64,000 bases of DNA from an uncultured archaeon (GTDB lineage Archaea; Nanobdellota; Nanobdellia; Pacearchaeales; GW2011-AR1), in contig CAWJRC010000004.1 of NCBI GenBank assembly GCA_963845205.1, positions 185,724 through 249,723 on the forward strand, given 5' to 3'. A program made the translations under genes and the position numbers. Positions 47,842 to 51,100 of this stretch are shown here, in pieces (position 1 is the first letter of the stretch; each line of letters starts with the position of its first letter). The notes beneath the pieces are model-generated. The model did no database searches. It was not told the origin of the DNA and worked only from the letters and a program-made list of their open reading frames with translations.

Positions 47842-47850
47842 ATCTAAACC
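47842..47850. repeat. left target-site duplication ATCTAAACC
   Basis: Identical 9-mer at 51092-51100. Each copy abuts the outer edge of a terminal inverted repeat. Confidence 0.8.
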
Positions 47851-47865
47851 GGCTTTGTAAATTAA
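47851..47865. repeat. left terminal inverted repeat GGCTTTGTAAATTAA
   Basis: Exact reverse complement of 51077-51091. Confidence 0.85.
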
Positions 47866-47898: not shown

Positions 47899-48576
47899 TT
47901 ATTGAGTCATTCTATCAAATTCAGTCATAATATTTGCTATATCCTGAATTGAATGATTTAATGGATTTAATTTCATTTGCATTTCTCTGCCTCTTCTTGC
48001 AATCTGCCTAATTGTTTCTATATCTTTAGGTTTAGTCATTAGTTCGTGGATTACTTTATTTCTTTTATCATTAAATTCTAAAAGAGATTTATATGTGGGA
48101 TTATCAATGATACCTAATAAATAGCTTATTGTAGTGTAATCTCTCAAGTATCTCGGATTAAATTTCTTTTTTAGTAACTCAAGTCTTTCTTTATCATTGT
48201 TTGTTAAATCCTCAATCTTTTTCTTTAGATATGCTTCAATGGTATTATGTATCAGGGAAATTGCTTCAATAAAACATTTGCTTCTTAAGGCATGTTCTAT
48301 AACATCTTCAAAACTATTTGGGTCAACTCTTGTTATTCTTACAAGTTCATCTATTTCTTGGTCTTTCCATGCAAGTTCTCTTTCTTCTTTTTCATACACA
48401 GATTCTACATCAAATAAATCATAATAATTACATTGGGGGCATTCATGAGGGCGATTAAATCCCATATCAGAATCTATTTGTTGACCTTCAGTCATCTCCG
48501 AATAGTCTTGTTCTAATTCTTCCATTTCTGCACCACATTTAGGACATTTTACCATAATTATCTTCCCTCGCACCAC
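47899..48576 (-). CDS. Zn-ribbon + HEPN-like domain protein
   Basis: N-terminal CPKCG...CPQC. The helical C-domain carries RNKVIH (Rx4H, codons 48046-48063). Its start overlaps the transposase 3' end. Confidence 0.55.
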   Translation of the reverse strand: MVRGKIIMVKCPKCGAEMEELEQDYSEMTEGQQIDSDMGFNRPHECPQCNYYDLFDVESVYEKEERELAWKDQEIDELVRITRVDPNSFEDVIEHALRSKCFIEAISLIHNTIEAYLKKKIEDLTNNDKERLELLKKKFNPRYLRDYTTISYLLGIIDNPTYKSLLEFNDKRNKVIHELMTKPKDIETIRQIARRGREMQMKLNPLNHSIQDIANIMTEFDRMTQ

Positions 48577-49711
48577 TCACAAGATTTAGTTGGGCAGTCT
48601 TTCCTTTACTTCTTAAATTATCTTTAAACTTTGCTTTCATCGACGAGAAAACTGTTTCTGCGTTGCTTCTTTTATGATAATGTTCCAAAAATTCGTCATG
48701 CTTGTAAATGAAATAAGCATACATCTTTTTCCATGTCCCTGAACCTCTATCTCTTCTTCCTGAAACATTTCTCTTAAACGGAATGTATGGGACAGCACCA
48801 ACATCCTTAATCAGCTCTAAGTTCTTACGAGAACTATAAGCTTTGTCACAACTTATCTCACCCACCTTGAAGTTCTTAGCTGTCTGTTCGACTAAGTGAG
48901 ATAATTGTGGACTATCATTACAATCACCTTCTGTTATTTCACAACCAGTTACAATATTTGTTTTTACTCCAGAGATTAAATGTGCTTTTAACCAAACTTT
49001 ATACTTTCTTTCTTTCCCCCATTTTGTATCAAACCAACGGGCAAATCTTGAAGTAGAGAATCCAGAAGAATCAACAGCGAAATCAGTTTCAATTTCTCTT
49101 AATGGACTTGCACTAATCTCTATTAATTCTTTTAGAATATTTGTTACTTCTTCCTTATTCATAAAATTGCTAATTGTCATAAAGTTTGGAACAACATCAA
49201 CTATATTCATTGCCTGAGCAATTTTCATGTCAGACATAAATCTTCTTAGAGAAAAAGTTGAGTACACTTTCAACGCAGAGGCAAATAGCATTTCTGAAAT
49301 TGGAAGAGTTGGTCTTCCAAATTTATATTTCGGTTGTTCAATATTATCGCATAAATCTCTTAATAATTTCATAAAAATTAATTTTTCGTTTGTCTGTGCT
49401 TTATCATAAGCTTTCCAATCTTGTGAGTAAGTTATCTTTACTCCTTTCGTTTGAGTTATTTTCCCTTCTTCGTCAATTTCTCTTTTTATATAAAATTCAA
49501 CTGCATGAATATGTTTGCATTTCTTTTTTCTTAATTCGCAATCGGGGCAGTTACATTTAGGTTCATGTCCATTGAATGTAACAAGATAAGATTTTCCAGA
49601 ACTGGAAGTAGAAGGAACTCTCCATCCCCTCGAAGTTTTTACTATTTGGAATCTTTTGACTATATCTTCTCCGCGTTCTTCTCTGCTCATTTGTTTGTAT
49701 GATTTTTCCAT
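48539..49711 (-). CDS. DDE transposase with N-terminal SWIM zinc finger (IS4/IS5-like)
   Basis: SWIM CNCPDCELRKKKCKH. DDE candidates are DSSGF, SCDKAYSS and YHKRSNAETVFS. The last about 15 aa do not look like the usual C-terminus. Confidence 0.8.
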   Translation of the reverse strand: MEKSYKQMSREERGEDIVKRFQIVKTSRGWRVPSTSSSGKSYLVTFNGHEPKCNCPDCELRKKKCKHIHAVEFYIKREIDEEGKITQTKGVKITYSQDWKAYDKAQTNEKLIFMKLLRDLCDNIEQPKYKFGRPTLPISEMLFASALKVYSTFSLRRFMSDMKIAQAMNIVDVVPNFMTISNFMNKEEVTNILKELIEISASPLREIETDFAVDSSGFSTSRFARWFDTKWGKERKYKVWLKAHLISGVKTNIVTGCEITEGDCNDSPQLSHLVEQTAKNFKVGEISCDKAYSSRKNLELIKDVGAVPYIPFKRNVSGRRDRGSGTWKKMYAYFIYKHDEFLEHYHKRSNAETVFSSMKAKFKDNLRSKGKTAQLNLVSGAREDNYGKMS

Positions 49712-49720
49712 TGTTATAAT

Positions 49721-49760
49721 TCGGTACCATACATAGTTTATATACTTTTCGGTACCATAA
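49721..49760 (-). promoter_or_regulatory. transposase promoter module: TCGGTACCATA site - TATA - TCGGTACCATA site
   Basis: Sites at 49721-49732 and 49749-49760 flank the minus-strand TATATAAAC (49736-49744). The ATG is at 49711. Confidence 0.55.
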
Positions 49761-49830
49761 TGATTAAATTAATTTTAGAGATATTTGTTAAATTTAAGAA
49801 AGAAATACTTTTCCGAGCATTGAAGAATGA

Positions 49831-49992
49831 TTACTCTTTTTCTATTGTTATTTTGCCTTTCTCTGCTTTTGCTTTAAGATGTTTATCTAACAGACCAGAT
49901 TCTTTAACAATAGCTTCTGGAACAGAACTAATATTGTACTTGTAATATTGTTTATCCCCTACTTTTTTTGATTGAACTTTTAAGAGCTTCAT
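49831..49992 (-). CDS. AbrB/SpoVT-like 53-aa DNA-binding protein (not in ORF track)
   Basis: My translation is MKLLKVQSKKVGDKQYYKYNISSVPEAIVKESGLLDKHLKAKAEKGKITIEKE. It fits the swapped-hairpin pattern (vqk.g.s..v.iP..iv...gl..g..l....e.g.i.i.k). Confidence 0.5.
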   Translation of the reverse strand: MKLLKVQSKKVGDKQYYKYNISSVPEAIVKESGLLDKHLKAKAEKGKITIEKE

Positions 49993-49997
49993 TGGAA

Positions 49998-50038
49998 TAG
50001 GTACCATAATAAACTATTTAAATATGTCGGTACCATAA
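49998..50038 (-). promoter_or_regulatory. AbrB-like gene promoter module: (T/A)GGTACCATAA site - TATA - TCGGTACCATAA site
   Basis: Sites at 49998-50009 and 50027-50038 flank the minus-strand ATTTAAATA. The ATG is at 49992. The architecture matches 49721-49760. Confidence 0.55.
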
Positions 50039-50084: not shown

Positions 50085-50594
50085 ATGTCAGAATACTTTC
50101 ATGTAGATTTAAGTCTGAGATTATATGAACAAGGAACTACTGGGATAGCTTGCATTAATTCAAAAACAAAAATACATAACGGCTGTGCTCTCCCAGATAG
50201 ATTAAAAAGACAAATAGAAAAAAATTTTGTTGGGGGTTTAAGAGAAAATTATGCTAAATTATATGCAATTTGTATATATTATTTGATTATAAATAAATTA
50301 GAAGAAATTAATACCCTTGTAATTTGTAATGATGAAGAATTTTTATATGTAAAAGAATATCTTTATTTTTTATTAAATGATTCTCCATTTAGAATACATA
50401 TAATTAGCATAACAGAGTTTAGAAAACAATTAGGGGGTCGAAAAATAAAATCATTGGCAGATAACGCTTCAAAATCTTATAGAAAAAGGGCACTTAAAAT
50501 GAATAAATGGGATATTGGAGTTAAATTAGATGTATTAACTATTACCTATGATATGATTAAAAATAAATTTGATTTATTAAGTAAATTAAAATAA
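50085..50594 (+). CDS. hypothetical protein (transposon passenger)
   Basis: 169-aa ORF divergent from the AbrB-like gene. No recognised motif. Confidence 0.5.
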   Translation: MSEYFHVDLSLRLYEQGTTGIACINSKTKIHNGCALPDRLKRQIEKNFVGGLRENYAKLYAICIYYLIINKLEEINTLVICNDEEFLYVKEYLYFLLNDSPFRIHIISITEFRKQLGGRKIKSLADNASKSYRKRALKMNKWDIGVKLDVLTITYDMIKNKFDLLSKLK

Positions 50595-50770: not shown

Positions 50771-51049
50771 ATGGATAGTAATGAATTTATAAGTCAATTA
50801 TTAGAGAAATTAAAAACAAGACCTAAAGAAGTAGCTAAAGAGATAGAGAATAATCCTCAAATATTAGAATTTTTAATTAATAGCTCAAAACAAGCCGAAC
50901 TTGAAAAAAATGAAAAAATTAGATATATAAATATGAATCAAGAAATGCAGATACAATTAGAACAAAAATCAAAAGACCTTAAAGTTACTCAAGGGGTTTT
51001 AATCGGAGCAGGGATATTATTTATCTTATCTTTATTAGATAATAAATAA
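50771..51049 (+). CDS. tail-anchored hypothetical protein (transposon passenger)
   Basis: 92 aa, helical, with a C-terminal TM segment. A TTTATAAA box lies about 30 nt upstream. Confidence 0.45.
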   Translation: MDSNEFISQLLEKLKTRPKEVAKEIENNPQILEFLINSSKQAELEKNEKIRYINMNQEMQIQLEQKSKDLKVTQGVLIGAGILFILSLLDNK

Positions 51050-51076: not shown

Positions 51077-51091
51077 TTAATTTACAAAGCC
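51077..51091. repeat. right terminal inverted repeat TTAATTTACAAAGCC
   Basis: Exact reverse complement of 47851-47865. Confidence 0.85.
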
Positions 51092-51100
51092 ATCTAAACC
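51092..51100. repeat. right target-site duplication ATCTAAACC
   Basis: Identical to 47842-47850. Confidence 0.8.

What the first reader, a model, noticed from the sequence alone, without database searches (positions are those of the whole stretch)
47899..48576. Zn-ribbon-HEPN protein overlapping the 3' end of the transposase gene
The 225-aa protein has an N-terminal CPKC...CPQC ribbon and a helical C-domain containing RNKVIH, an Rx4-6H HEPN RNase signature in its common RNxxxH form. Its start overlaps the last 17-38 nt of the transposase ORF on the same strand, so the two are probably co-transcribed. No MNT-type antitoxin with a GS...DxD motif is visible in the element. An RNase toxin-like cargo tied to a transposase could be an addiction or defence module with an unconventional partner. 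Candidate partners are the AbrB-like protein or the 169-aa protein.
Basis: partly seen in the sequence, partly recalled or inferred. Interest (0 to 1): 0.6.

Follow-up and report, generated by a model that had tools for sequence, protein, structure and literature searches.

The report
Zinc-ribbon HEPN gene on defence transposon

Summary
The ORF exists on the minus strand at 47899-48576. It is 225 aa from a GTG start, more likely 218 aa from the ATG at 48555. The CPKC...CPQC ribbon and RNKVIH (48046-48063) are as described.

About 29 close homologues exist, all from Nanoarchaeota/Woesearchaeota MAGs or metagenomes. All four Cys, R172 and H177 are conserved, and dN/dS is 0.09-0.29. Across 72 distant relatives R172 is invariant and H177 is kept in at least 90%.

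No Pfam, NCBIfam or PADLOC model recognises the protein. The HEPN assignment rests on weaker evidence that all points the same way:
- Solved HEPN structures are the most probable Foldseek matches, but E-values are not significant.
- hhalign against two real HEPN families gives in-register alignments (P about 1e-3).
- Distant relatives give weak Pfam or PADLOC HEPN hits.

The gene is the last gene of a 3241-bp IS5-like transposon with 15-bp inverted repeats and a 9-bp target duplication. The 54 related transposase loci include 2-9 kb transposons, most of them carrying restriction-modification genes. This gene sits next to the same inverted repeat in four elements and next to R-M genes elsewhere.

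No neighbour is conserved, so there is no MNT, and neither the AbrB-like gene nor the 169-aa gene is a partner. The most likely function is a stand-alone R-M-associated abortive-infection-type RNase. It is a new member of a known kind.

The parts
47842..47850 (.). 9-bp target-site duplication ATCTAAACC (left copy)
   Evidence: Identical copy at 51092-51100. Exact 9-bp duplications flank 10 related elements.
47851..47865 (.). Terminal inverted repeat GGCTTTGTAAATTAA (the transposon end next to the HEPN gene)
   Evidence: Perfect 15-nt inverted repeat with 51077-51091. The family consensus is GGCTTTGTGTATAAAGT. The same end...ACAAAGCC, lies 40 nt after the stop of the HEPN homologues in L026 and L008.
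47899..48576 (-). Zn-ribbon-HEPN ORF (225 aa from GTG 48576; probable start ATG 48555, 218 aa)
48430..48546 (-). N-terminal zinc ribbon (C11xxC14 ... C46xxC49) with a conserved insert, MTEGQxADYxxGFN
   Evidence: The Cys residues are conserved. The AF2 model shows three short strands and one helix at pLDDT 78-88. The same module is fused to VRR-NUC, HNH or REase-like domains in other proteins.
47902..48324 (-). All-alpha C-terminal domain (residues about 85-225), probable HEPN domain
   Evidence: AF2 model with pLDDT 85 and pTM 0.79. The most probable Foldseek matches are HEPN structures. hhalign against RiboL-PSP-HEPN and HepT gives P about 1e-3, in register.
48046..48063 (-). R172-N-K-V-I-H177, the Rx4-6H motif
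   Evidence: Read from the sequence. R172 is invariant and H177 is kept in at least 90% of 72 distant relatives.
48539..49711 (-). IS5-like DDE transposase (390 aa), missing a 26-aa C-terminal segment found in relatives
   Evidence: Pfam DDE_Tnp_1 2e-18; NCBIfam transpos_IS5_2 3e-32, at 112 bits against a cut-off of 140. All 12 relatives checked, plus L026, carry ELLxKxLxHNICVVIQExxELGxxGE after TAQxN; the window copy does not.
49831..50007 (-). Small ORF (58 aa, or 53 aa from 49992) upstream of the transposase; a transposon-associated gene, possibly a regulator
   Evidence: Homologues (48-68% identity) lie upstream of the transposase in 10 related loci that have no HEPN gene. It has no Pfam hit.
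50085..50594 (+). 169-aa passenger ORF of unknown family
   Evidence: No Pfam, NCBIfam or PADLOC hit. No homologue in related elements or near HEPN homologues.
50771..51049 (+). 92-aa passenger ORF of unknown family
51077..51091 (.). Terminal inverted repeat TTAATTTACAAAGCC (far end)
51092..51100 (.). 9-bp target-site duplication ATCTAAACC (right copy)

Best explanation
The ORF encodes a two-domain protein. The N-terminal part is a C4 zinc ribbon with a conserved acidic insert. The C-terminal part is an all-alpha domain that is most likely a HEPN-superfamily RNase whose catalytic dyad is R172/H177.

It belongs to a small, patchily distributed family in DPANN archaea that no curated model covers. 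The gene is an optional defence cargo gene. In the window it is the last gene of a 3.24-kb IS5-like transposon, whose relatives are mostly 5.7-9 kb and carry restriction-modification systems.

In the window copy the R-M genes are absent and the transposase has lost a conserved C-terminal segment. The element is therefore probably a reduced, immobile derivative.

The likely mechanism is inferred, not shown. As in other HEPN proteins, two subunits would form a composite Rx4-6H site that cleaves RNA. The protein would act alone, without a protein antitoxin, as an R-M-associated second-line (abortive-infection-type) effector. The zinc ribbon would serve as a built-in sensing, targeting or regulatory module.
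For: Shown:
- The ORF, its motifs and its conservation, and purifying selection with dN/dS 0.09-0.29.
- Confident AF2 models (pLDDT 82 and 85). All Foldseek matches with probability of at least 0.7 are HEPN structures: 2hsb 0.97 with TM 0.66, 2q00 0.87-0.89, HepT 6m6u 0.72-0.77, 1o3u 0.75.
- hhalign of the 72-sequence C-domain profile against RiboL-PSP-HEPN gives P=0.0019, with the helix-1 block and RNxxxH both in register. Against DPANN HepT it gives P=0.001 with RNxxxH in register. The best of 30 block-shuffles gave 0.053 and 0.019, and reversed profiles gave 0.19 and 0.28.
- Distant relatives weakly hit HEPN_RiboL-PSP (7), MtlR (3), HepT-like (2), HEPN_Cthe2314 (2) and DUF4145 (1). P0029 hits the PADLOC CARF_HEPN model at 3.9e-4.
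- Transposon borders: a 15-bp inverted repeat plus a 9-bp duplication. The family has the same repeat and exact 9-bp duplications in 10 loci.
- Cargo genes are N6_Mtase, HSDR_N, Methylase_S, PDDEXK_1, C5 methylase, HATPase_c_3 and N6_N4_Mtase.
- The gene is the last gene before the same inverted repeat in the window, L026, L062 and L008, with a decayed repeat in L013. R-M genes lie directly upstream in L026, L062, L008 and L001.
- Other contexts are a defence island with an MmeI-like R-M (L003), an integrase pair (L010) and a P4-cII/Dam element (L025).
- No neighbour is conserved.
- Distribution is patchy: 3 of 101 genera in the family and 4 of 401 genomes in the phylum.
- Literature: HEPN domains are tightly associated with R-M systems, and Zn-ribbon fusions occur in other HEPN families (PMC3710099).
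Against: - No curated HEPN model (Pfam, NCBIfam, PADLOC) hits the window protein.
- A profile search of PDB sequences finds nothing.
- Foldseek E-values are 0.4-1 and TM-scores about 0.5-0.66, which is weak for a helical bundle.
- hhalign probabilities are only 14-22%.
- RNase activity, toxicity and any defence phenotype are untested.
- Some homologues sit in contexts with no clear defence gene: next to a possible Mre11/Rad50-like pair, identified only by Pfam (Metallophos and SMC_N/AAA_23), and the proteasome genes in L013, next to a DNA ligase in L117, and next to TFIIB in L116.
- The window copy lacks the N-terminal roughly 20 residues found in its closest relatives.
Confidence: 0.55

Rival explanations
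1. Addiction (post-segregational killing) module of the transposon. The HEPN RNase would be a toxin that stabilises the element or its R-M cargo. It would be neutralised by an unrecognised antitoxin: its own Zn-ribbon domain, a small RNA, or a host factor.
For: It sits at the conserved end of the transposon in 4 elements. It is tightly coupled to the upstream gene. HEPN toxins are common in TA systems (PMC3710099).
Against: Only 2 of 54 related transposase loci carry it. No conserved neighbouring ORF exists. No direct evidence of toxicity exists. With these tools this reading cannot be separated from the defence reading.
Confidence: 0.17
2. One reading: a toxin-antitoxin pair in which the AbrB-like 58-aa protein or the 169-aa protein of the same element is the unconventional antitoxin.
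For: All three genes lie inside the same 3.24-kb element.
Against: The 58-aa ORF occurs in 10 related transposons that have no HEPN gene, and none of the HEPN homologues examined has it. The 169-aa ORF has no homologue anywhere in the 54+ loci or next to any homologue. Neither has a family hit.
Confidence: 0.05
3. Not a HEPN nuclease. It would be a Zn-ribbon plus helical-bundle protein with a regulatory, nucleic-acid-binding or transposition-accessory role, and RNxxxH would serve a non-catalytic function.
For: No significant hit to any curated HEPN model or to any solved structure by sequence. Foldseek E-values are at least 0.36. Its position next to the transposon end is conserved in several elements. 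Inactive or ligand-binding HEPN-like proteins such as MtlR appear among the matches.
Against: The only invariant residue across 72 distant relatives is the motif Arg, with the His next. Profile alignments to two real HEPN families place the motif in register. The same Zn ribbon is fused to bona fide nuclease domains (VRR-NUC with an intact E...PD...ExK motif) in sister families, which argues for a nuclease effector in that position.
Confidence: 0.15

Closest known systems
HEPN superfamily RNases associated with restriction-modification and abortive-infection systems (DUF4145-like, Abi2/AbiD/AbiF, AbiU2, RiboL-PSP-HEPN; Anantharaman et al. 2013, PMC3710099)
   Same: All-alpha domain with a conserved RNxxxH in a late helix and a conserved polar block in the first core helix. 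Solitary gene embedded in R-M operons, defence islands and mobile elements. Zn-ribbon fusions are recorded for other HEPN families.
   Different: None of their models hits this protein. The best profile-profile P is about 1e-3. The family is confined to DPANN archaea. The Zn ribbon has a distinctive conserved MTEGQxADY insert and is N-terminal.
HepT-MntA (HEPN-MNT) toxin-antitoxin systems
   Same: Small HEPN protein with Rx4H. HepT structures (6m6u, 5yep, 7bxo) are among the most probable Foldseek matches.
   Different: No MNT nucleotidyltransferase lies next to any of the homologues examined. There is no PF01934 hit. The genome has no HepT-like gene at all, although 52 of 201 genomes of the phylum do. 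The protein carries an extra Zn ribbon.
IS5-family insertion sequences (IS903-type 9-bp target duplication) and cargo-carrying unit transposons
   Same: DDE_Tnp_1 transposase with a Y-x2-R-x3-E-x6-K signature, short terminal inverted repeats and a 9-bp target duplication.
   Different: The elements are 2-9 kb and carry R-M or defence cargo whose first gene overlaps the transposase stop. The NCBIfam IS5 score is below its cut-off (112 against 140 bits). The transposase has an N-terminal SWIM-like Zn finger. The window copy has a truncated transposase.
Defence-cargo transposons such as Tn7-like elements (PMC8649781)
   Same: Transposons whose variable cargo region is dominated by R-M and other defence genes.
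   Different: A different transposase class (a single IS5-like DDE enzyme), much smaller elements, and an archaeal (DPANN) host.

Membership tests
HEPN superfamily | Conserved Rx4-6H motif, commonly R-N-x3-H | tested here: met
   RNKVIH at residues 172-177. R, N and H are kept in at least 90% of 29 homologues. R is invariant and H is kept in at least 90% of 72 distant relatives.
HEPN superfamily | All-alpha up-down helical bundle that superposes on solved HEPN domains | tested here: inconclusive
   AF2 models at pLDDT 82 and 85. All Foldseek matches with probability of at least 0.7 are HEPN structures (2hsb, 2q00, 6m6u, 1o3u), but E is 0.36-1.4 and TM is 0.4-0.66.
HEPN superfamily | Sequence or profile similarity to an established HEPN family | tested here: inconclusive
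   No Pfam, NCBIfam or PADLOC hit for the window protein. Distant relatives give weak hits to five families that I take to be HEPN-type, below curated cut-offs. hhalign gives P=0.0019 (RiboL-PSP-HEPN) and P=0.001 (HepT), in register and better than all shuffled or reversed controls.
HEPN superfamily | Metal-independent RNase activity from a dimeric composite active site | not testable with these tools
   Needs biochemistry or a multimer model.
HEPN-MNT (HepT/MntA) toxin-antitoxin | Adjacent minimal nucleotidyltransferase antitoxin (GS...DxD) | tested here: not met
   No NTP-transferase hit in the element. None among the neighbours in 12 homologue contexts.
HEPN-MNT (HepT/MntA) toxin-antitoxin | Toxin matches HepT-like PF01934 | tested here: not met
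   No hit. The genome-wide PF01934 search found nothing in this genome.
Type II TA with AbrB/MazE-type antitoxin | Conserved adjacency of toxin and antitoxin genes across homologues | tested here: not met
   The 58-aa ORF is never next to other HEPN homologues. It is found in 10 transposons that lack the HEPN gene.
IS5-family transposable element (applies to the element carrying the gene) | DDE transposase of IS4/IS5 type | tested here: met
   DDE_Tnp_1 at 2e-18 and 67 bits, above the cut-off of 23. transpos_IS5_2 at 3e-32, but 112 bits is below the equivalog cut-off of 140.
IS5-family transposable element (applies to the element carrying the gene) | Terminal inverted repeats flanked by a target-site duplication | tested here: met
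   15/15-nt inverted repeat and 9/9-nt duplication in the window. The same repeat with exact 9-bp duplications is found in 10 related loci.
Single-gene HEPN Abi systems (Abi_2/AbiD/AbiF, AbiU2, AbiV) | Match to the family's profile | tested here: not met
   No Pfam or PADLOC hit at E<=0.1.
Single-gene HEPN Abi systems (Abi_2/AbiD/AbiF, AbiU2, AbiV) | Protection against virus infection through cell suicide or dormancy | not testable with these tools
   Needs an infection assay.

The most novel reading that the evidence does not exclude
The N-terminal zinc ribbon (CxxC-x14-17-MTEGQxADYxAGFN-x4-CxxC) is a previously undescribed portable module. It is joined to interchangeable nuclease effectors: this HEPN domain, VRR-NUC/PD-(D/E)xK, HNH, and an REase-like domain with one to three ribbon copies. 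Together these would form a new family of single-polypeptide sensor-effector immune proteins of DPANN archaea, spread in part by an undescribed family of IS5-like transposons that carry R-M systems.
Probability: 0.3. Interest if true: 0.6.

Novelty: new member of a known kind. Interest (0 to 1): 0.4.

Why it matters
DPANN archaea have tiny genomes. A recent survey reports that they are poor in R-M and CRISPR systems and enriched in compact single-gene defences (PMC12988326).

This locus shows how such genes may travel. A family of IS5-like transposons carries whole R-M systems, and the Zn-ribbon-HEPN gene is an optional end-of-element passenger.

If the protein is an active RNase, three things follow:
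- It adds an unmodelled HEPN family to archaeal defence catalogues.
- It gives a compact candidate (about 220 aa) for biochemical study.
- It raises the question of what a Zn ribbon shared with VRR-NUC and HNH nucleases senses.

In itself it is an expected kind of gene in an expected kind of place.

Tried and rejected
- Direct family searches of the protein (Pfam, NCBIfam, PADLOC) gave only zinc-ribbon noise.
- A profile search of all PDB sequences found nothing relevant.
- Folding the C-domain alone did not improve the Foldseek E-values. The viral BFVD library was uninformative.
- hhalign against single sequences was useless. The narrow 28-sequence profile gave no signal against HEPN families; only the broad 72-sequence profile did.
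- A second homologue search with the broad alignment added no annotated relatives.
- No relative of the Zn-ribbon-HEPN family or of a Zn-ribbon-VRR-NUC protein was found in IMG/VR viral contigs. One viral search failed for lack of conserved columns.
- A search for a conserved neighbour (all-vs-all BLAST of ORFs around 7 distinct homologue contexts) found none.
- Empty-site test. The same-genus genome G442 has rps19e but a different upstream gene and a contig break, so no exact empty site could be shown.
- Public reads are very low depth and only confirm the junction sequence. One unitig starts exactly at the element border.
- I first thought the overlap with the transposase came from a large deletion that fused the two genes. 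I rejected this because the transposase tail and the overlapping start of the next gene are the native arrangement in relatives. The window copy instead has an internal loss of about 26 codons.

Full report
**1. The observation**

The ORF at 47899..48576 is real and lies on the minus strand. It gives 225 aa from the GTG at 48576. The public gene call for the identical protein starts at the ATG at 48555 and gives 218 aa (P0001). That ATG is preceded by GAGG at about -9, so it is the more likely start.

The ORF overlaps the upstream, same-strand transposase ORF (48539..49711) by 17 nt from the ATG start or 38 nt from the GTG start. CPKC (residues 11-14), CPQC (46-49) and RNKVIH (172-177, encoded at 48046-48063) are all present.

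The organism is an A+T-rich DPANN archaeon. The genome is 695 kb in 5 contigs and 88% complete. Homologues are annotated as Nanoarchaeota or Woesearchaeota MAGs.

**2. Is it a real, conserved protein?**

A search of 5.8 billion proteins found 29 relatives at 45-87% identity, none with a Pfam domain or an informative name. In their alignment the four Cys, E104, H110, N111, E114, R172, N173 and H177 are invariant or nearly so. Pairwise dN/dS is 0.09-0.29.

A profile search of 1.84 billion cluster representatives gave 134 hits at E<1e-3. They fall into three groups:
- full-length relatives;
- many proteins of 125-190 aa that match only the C-terminal domain;
- about 25 that match only the zinc ribbon.

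In an alignment of 72 C-domain relatives (16-48% identity), R172 is the only invariant residue and H177 is kept in at least 90%. The consensus is FNxxRNxxxHxL.

**3. Is the C-domain HEPN?**

No curated model recognises the protein itself: Pfam and NCBIfam, PADLOC, and PDB sequences searched with a profile.

AF2 models are confident. The full protein gives pLDDT 82, and the C-domain gives pLDDT 85 and pTM 0.79. They show three short strands and one helix for the ribbon, followed by an all-helical domain.

Foldseek against the PDB gives no significant E-value (best 0.36). However, every match with probability of at least 0.7 is a HEPN structure:
- AF_0298, 2hsb: probability 0.97, TM 0.66, rmsd 3.8;
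- SSO protein, 2q00: 0.87-0.89;
- HepT, 6m6u: 0.72-0.77;
- TM0613, 1o3u: 0.75.

SO_3166, MtlR and YggD follow.

Distant relatives weakly hit HEPN_RiboL-PSP (7 of 72), MtlR (3), HepT-like (2), HEPN_Cthe2314 (2) and DUF4145 (1). P0029 hits the PADLOC CARF_HEPN model at 3.9e-4 over its C-domain.

I built reference profiles of two real HEPN families. One was a RiboL-PSP-HEPN subfamily seeded from a DPANN member above the Pfam cut-off. The other was 28 DPANN HepT proteins.
- hhalign of the broad C-domain profile against RiboL-PSP-HEPN gave P=0.0019 over 98 columns. The first-helix block (YIEAIxLiHxxIExyL against YKDAAAVIxGSTLExHL) and RNxxxH were both in register.
- hhalign against HepT gave P=0.001, with RNxxxH in register.
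- Thirty block-shuffled controls reached at best 0.053 and 0.019. Reversed profiles gave 0.19 and 0.28.

Taken together, HEPN is the best reading (about 80%), but it is not proven.

**4. What the gene sits in**

A perfect 15-nt inverted repeat, GGCTTTGTAAATTAA (47851-47865 and 51077-51091), is flanked by a perfect 9-bp direct repeat, ATCTAAACC (47842-47850 and 51092-51100). Together they define a 3241-bp transposon. An earlier first-stage note gives the same borders.

In transposase orientation the order is: inverted repeat, 92-aa ORF (opposite strand), 169-aa ORF (opposite strand), 58-aa ORF, transposase, Zn-ribbon-HEPN, inverted repeat. The HEPN stop lies 33 nt from the repeat.

The transposase is IS5-like: DDE_Tnp_1 at 2e-18, transpos_IS5_2 at 3e-32 but below cut-off, and a weak SWIM finger. 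It is single-copy in the genome.

**5. The transposon family**

A metagenome scan with the transposase returned 54 loci at 34-96% identity. In 10 of them I found the same kind of inverted repeat (GGCTTTGTGTATAAAGT) on both sides with an exact 9-bp duplication. Element lengths are 2.0-9.0 kb.

In 8 of the 12 relatives checked, the transposase stop is overlapped by the start of the first cargo gene (ATGA). The cargo is dominated by R-M genes:
- N6_Mtase, with or without HSDR_N, with or without fused Methylase_S;
- separate S subunits;
- PDDEXK_1 nucleases;
- a C5 methylase with a HATPase_c_3 protein;
- N6_N4_Mtase;
- DUF3800.

The Zn-ribbon-HEPN gene occurs in only two of these loci plus L026.
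- L026 carries a transposase 68% identical to the window's, then HsdM-like, HsdS, a PDDEXK fragment, a 105-aa ORF and the HEPN gene.
- L062 carries the transposase, two R-M proteins and the HEPN gene.

In L026 and L008 the family inverted repeat (...ACAAAGCC) lies 40 nt after the HEPN stop, as in the window. L013 keeps a decayed copy. The truncated upstream genes in L008 and L001 are homologues of the cargo MTase-S and HsdS proteins.

The gene is therefore a recurrent last gene of the R-M cargo, next to one end of the transposon.

The window's transposase lacks 26 residues (ELLxKxLxHNICVVIQExxELGxxGE) that are present in all 12 relatives checked and in L026. The NCBIfam alignment likewise stops 15 positions short of the profile end. 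By analogy with the C-terminal dimerisation helix of Tn5-type transposases, the enzyme is probably defective. That is my inference from general knowledge. The window element looks like a reduced derivative that kept only the transposase and the HEPN gene on that arm.

**6. Other contexts and partners**

Other homologues lie in varied settings:
- after a DUF2779 nuclease in a defence island with an MmeI-like R-M, a PLD-helicase and a DUF4411/ImmA-like pair (L003/L115);
- between two integrase genes (L010);
- in an element with P4-cII and Dam (L025);
- next to SLFN_AlbA_2 (L024);
- after a methylase, a Metallophos protein and an SMC_N/AAA_23 protein, possibly an Mre11/Rad50-like pair (L013);
- near a DNA ligase and an Hjc-like nuclease (L117).

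All-vs-all BLAST of neighbouring ORFs found no conserved partner. The 58-aa ORF has homologues upstream of the transposase in 10 loci without the HEPN gene, so it belongs to the transposon. Four GGTACCATA repeats lie around it at 49721-50036. The 169-aa and 92-aa ORFs are unique to this element. No MNT is present, and this genome has no HepT-like gene.

The family is rare and patchy: 3 of 101 genera of the GTDB family and 4 of 401 genomes of the phylum. It is absent from the same-genus genome G442.

**7. The zinc ribbon as a portable module**

Profile hits that match only the N-terminal ribbon carry other C-terminal domains.
- VRR-NUC is found in P0078, P0085, P0088 and P0117 by Pfam. An alignment of these four with P0086, P0108, P0141 and P0148 (A8) keeps E...G-x-P-D...E-x-K...Q invariant.
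- P0111 gives a weak HNH hit.
- P0081 has another Rx4H-bearing helical domain.
- P0103 and P0134 have an N-terminal REase-like domain with the ribbon at the C-terminus, in three copies in P0103.

One Zn-ribbon-VRR-NUC gene lies on a 575-kb archaeal contig. This effector swapping suggests that the ribbon is a sensing, targeting or regulatory module and that the C-domain is a nuclease effector. That is inference.

**8. Mechanism and comparison**

Shown: the domain architecture, the motif conservation, purifying selection, transposon membership, association with R-M and mobile elements, and the absence of a conserved partner.

Inferred: HEPN dimerisation, RNA cleavage by R172/H177, and action as a stand-alone second-line or abortive-infection effector (or an addiction toxin) alongside R-M.

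This matches the established picture that HEPN domains are tightly associated with R-M systems and occur fused to Zn ribbons in other families (PMC3710099). It also matches the report that DPANN archaea favour compact single-gene defences (PMC12988326). I found no paper describing this protein family or these DPANN R-M transposons, but the library is limited.

**9. Verdict**

The HEPN reading is probable. The partner hypothesis is rejected.

The protein is a new, unmodelled member of a known kind: an R-M-associated HEPN nuclease. The more interesting by-products are the R-M-carrying IS5-like transposon family of DPANN archaea and the portable Zn ribbon shared by several nuclease types. Interest is 0.4.

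Noticed in passing
L032, L033, L034, L035, L037, L049, L050, L051, L052, L072 (metagenome loci): A family of 2-9 kb IS5-like transposons with an inverted repeat of about 17 bp (GGCTTTGTGTATAAAGT) and exact 9-bp target duplications. Most carry whole R-M systems, often with the first cargo gene overlapping the transposase stop (ATGA). I found no description of it in the paper library.
   Followed up: partly
window 48539-48600 (transposase C-terminus): The window's transposase lacks a 26-aa segment (ELLxKxLxHNICVVIQExxELGxxGE) present in all 12 relatives checked and in L026. It is probably a defective enzyme in a single-copy element.
   Followed up: yes
window 49721-50036: Four copies of (T/C)GGTACCATA lie in two pairs in front of the transposase and the 58-aa ORF. 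They may be operator sites. Two of them include the ATG of minus-strand ORFs.
   Followed up: no
It is conserved (48-68% identity) upstream of the transposase in 10 related loci, so it is a core gene of the transposon.
   Followed up: partly
proteins P0078, P0085, P0088, P0108, P0117, P0141, P0148, P0111, P0081, P0103, P0134: The same Zn ribbon with the MTEGQxADY insert is fused to VRR-NUC, HNH-like, another Rx4H helical domain, or an N-terminal REase-like domain (three ribbon copies in P0103). This is an effector-swapping pattern.
   Followed up: partly
L023:5986-7136: A C-domain-only relative (153 aa, RNKAIH) sits between dnaK and dnaJ, together with a DUF433-like/PIN-like pair. This looks like insertion of selfish genes into the hsp70 operon of a Woesearchaeota MAG.
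   Followed up: no
L022:4990-6498: Two different Rx4H proteins lie two genes apart: a 179-aa protein that hits the PADLOC CARF_HEPN and Csm6 models, and a 180-aa C-domain relative of this family. A RelE/ParE-like pair lies nearby.
   Followed up: no
window 47851 (run X1, record 2): A low-depth unitig from a freshwater-sediment metagenome begins exactly at the first base of the transposon. This could reflect an assembly-graph branch at a polymorphic insertion, but coverage is too low to tell.
   Followed up: partly
G442:C4:1-2300 (L120): The same-genus genome has rps19e preceded by a 512-aa secreted repeat protein instead of the DUF1801 gene and the transposon. The HerA-like gene lies at another contig end, so synteny is broken here.
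   Followed up: partly
L054:211-726 (-) in element coordinates: A 171-aa cargo ORF in the left arm of another transposon carries RNQITH. It may be a further HEPN-like passenger.
   Followed up: no
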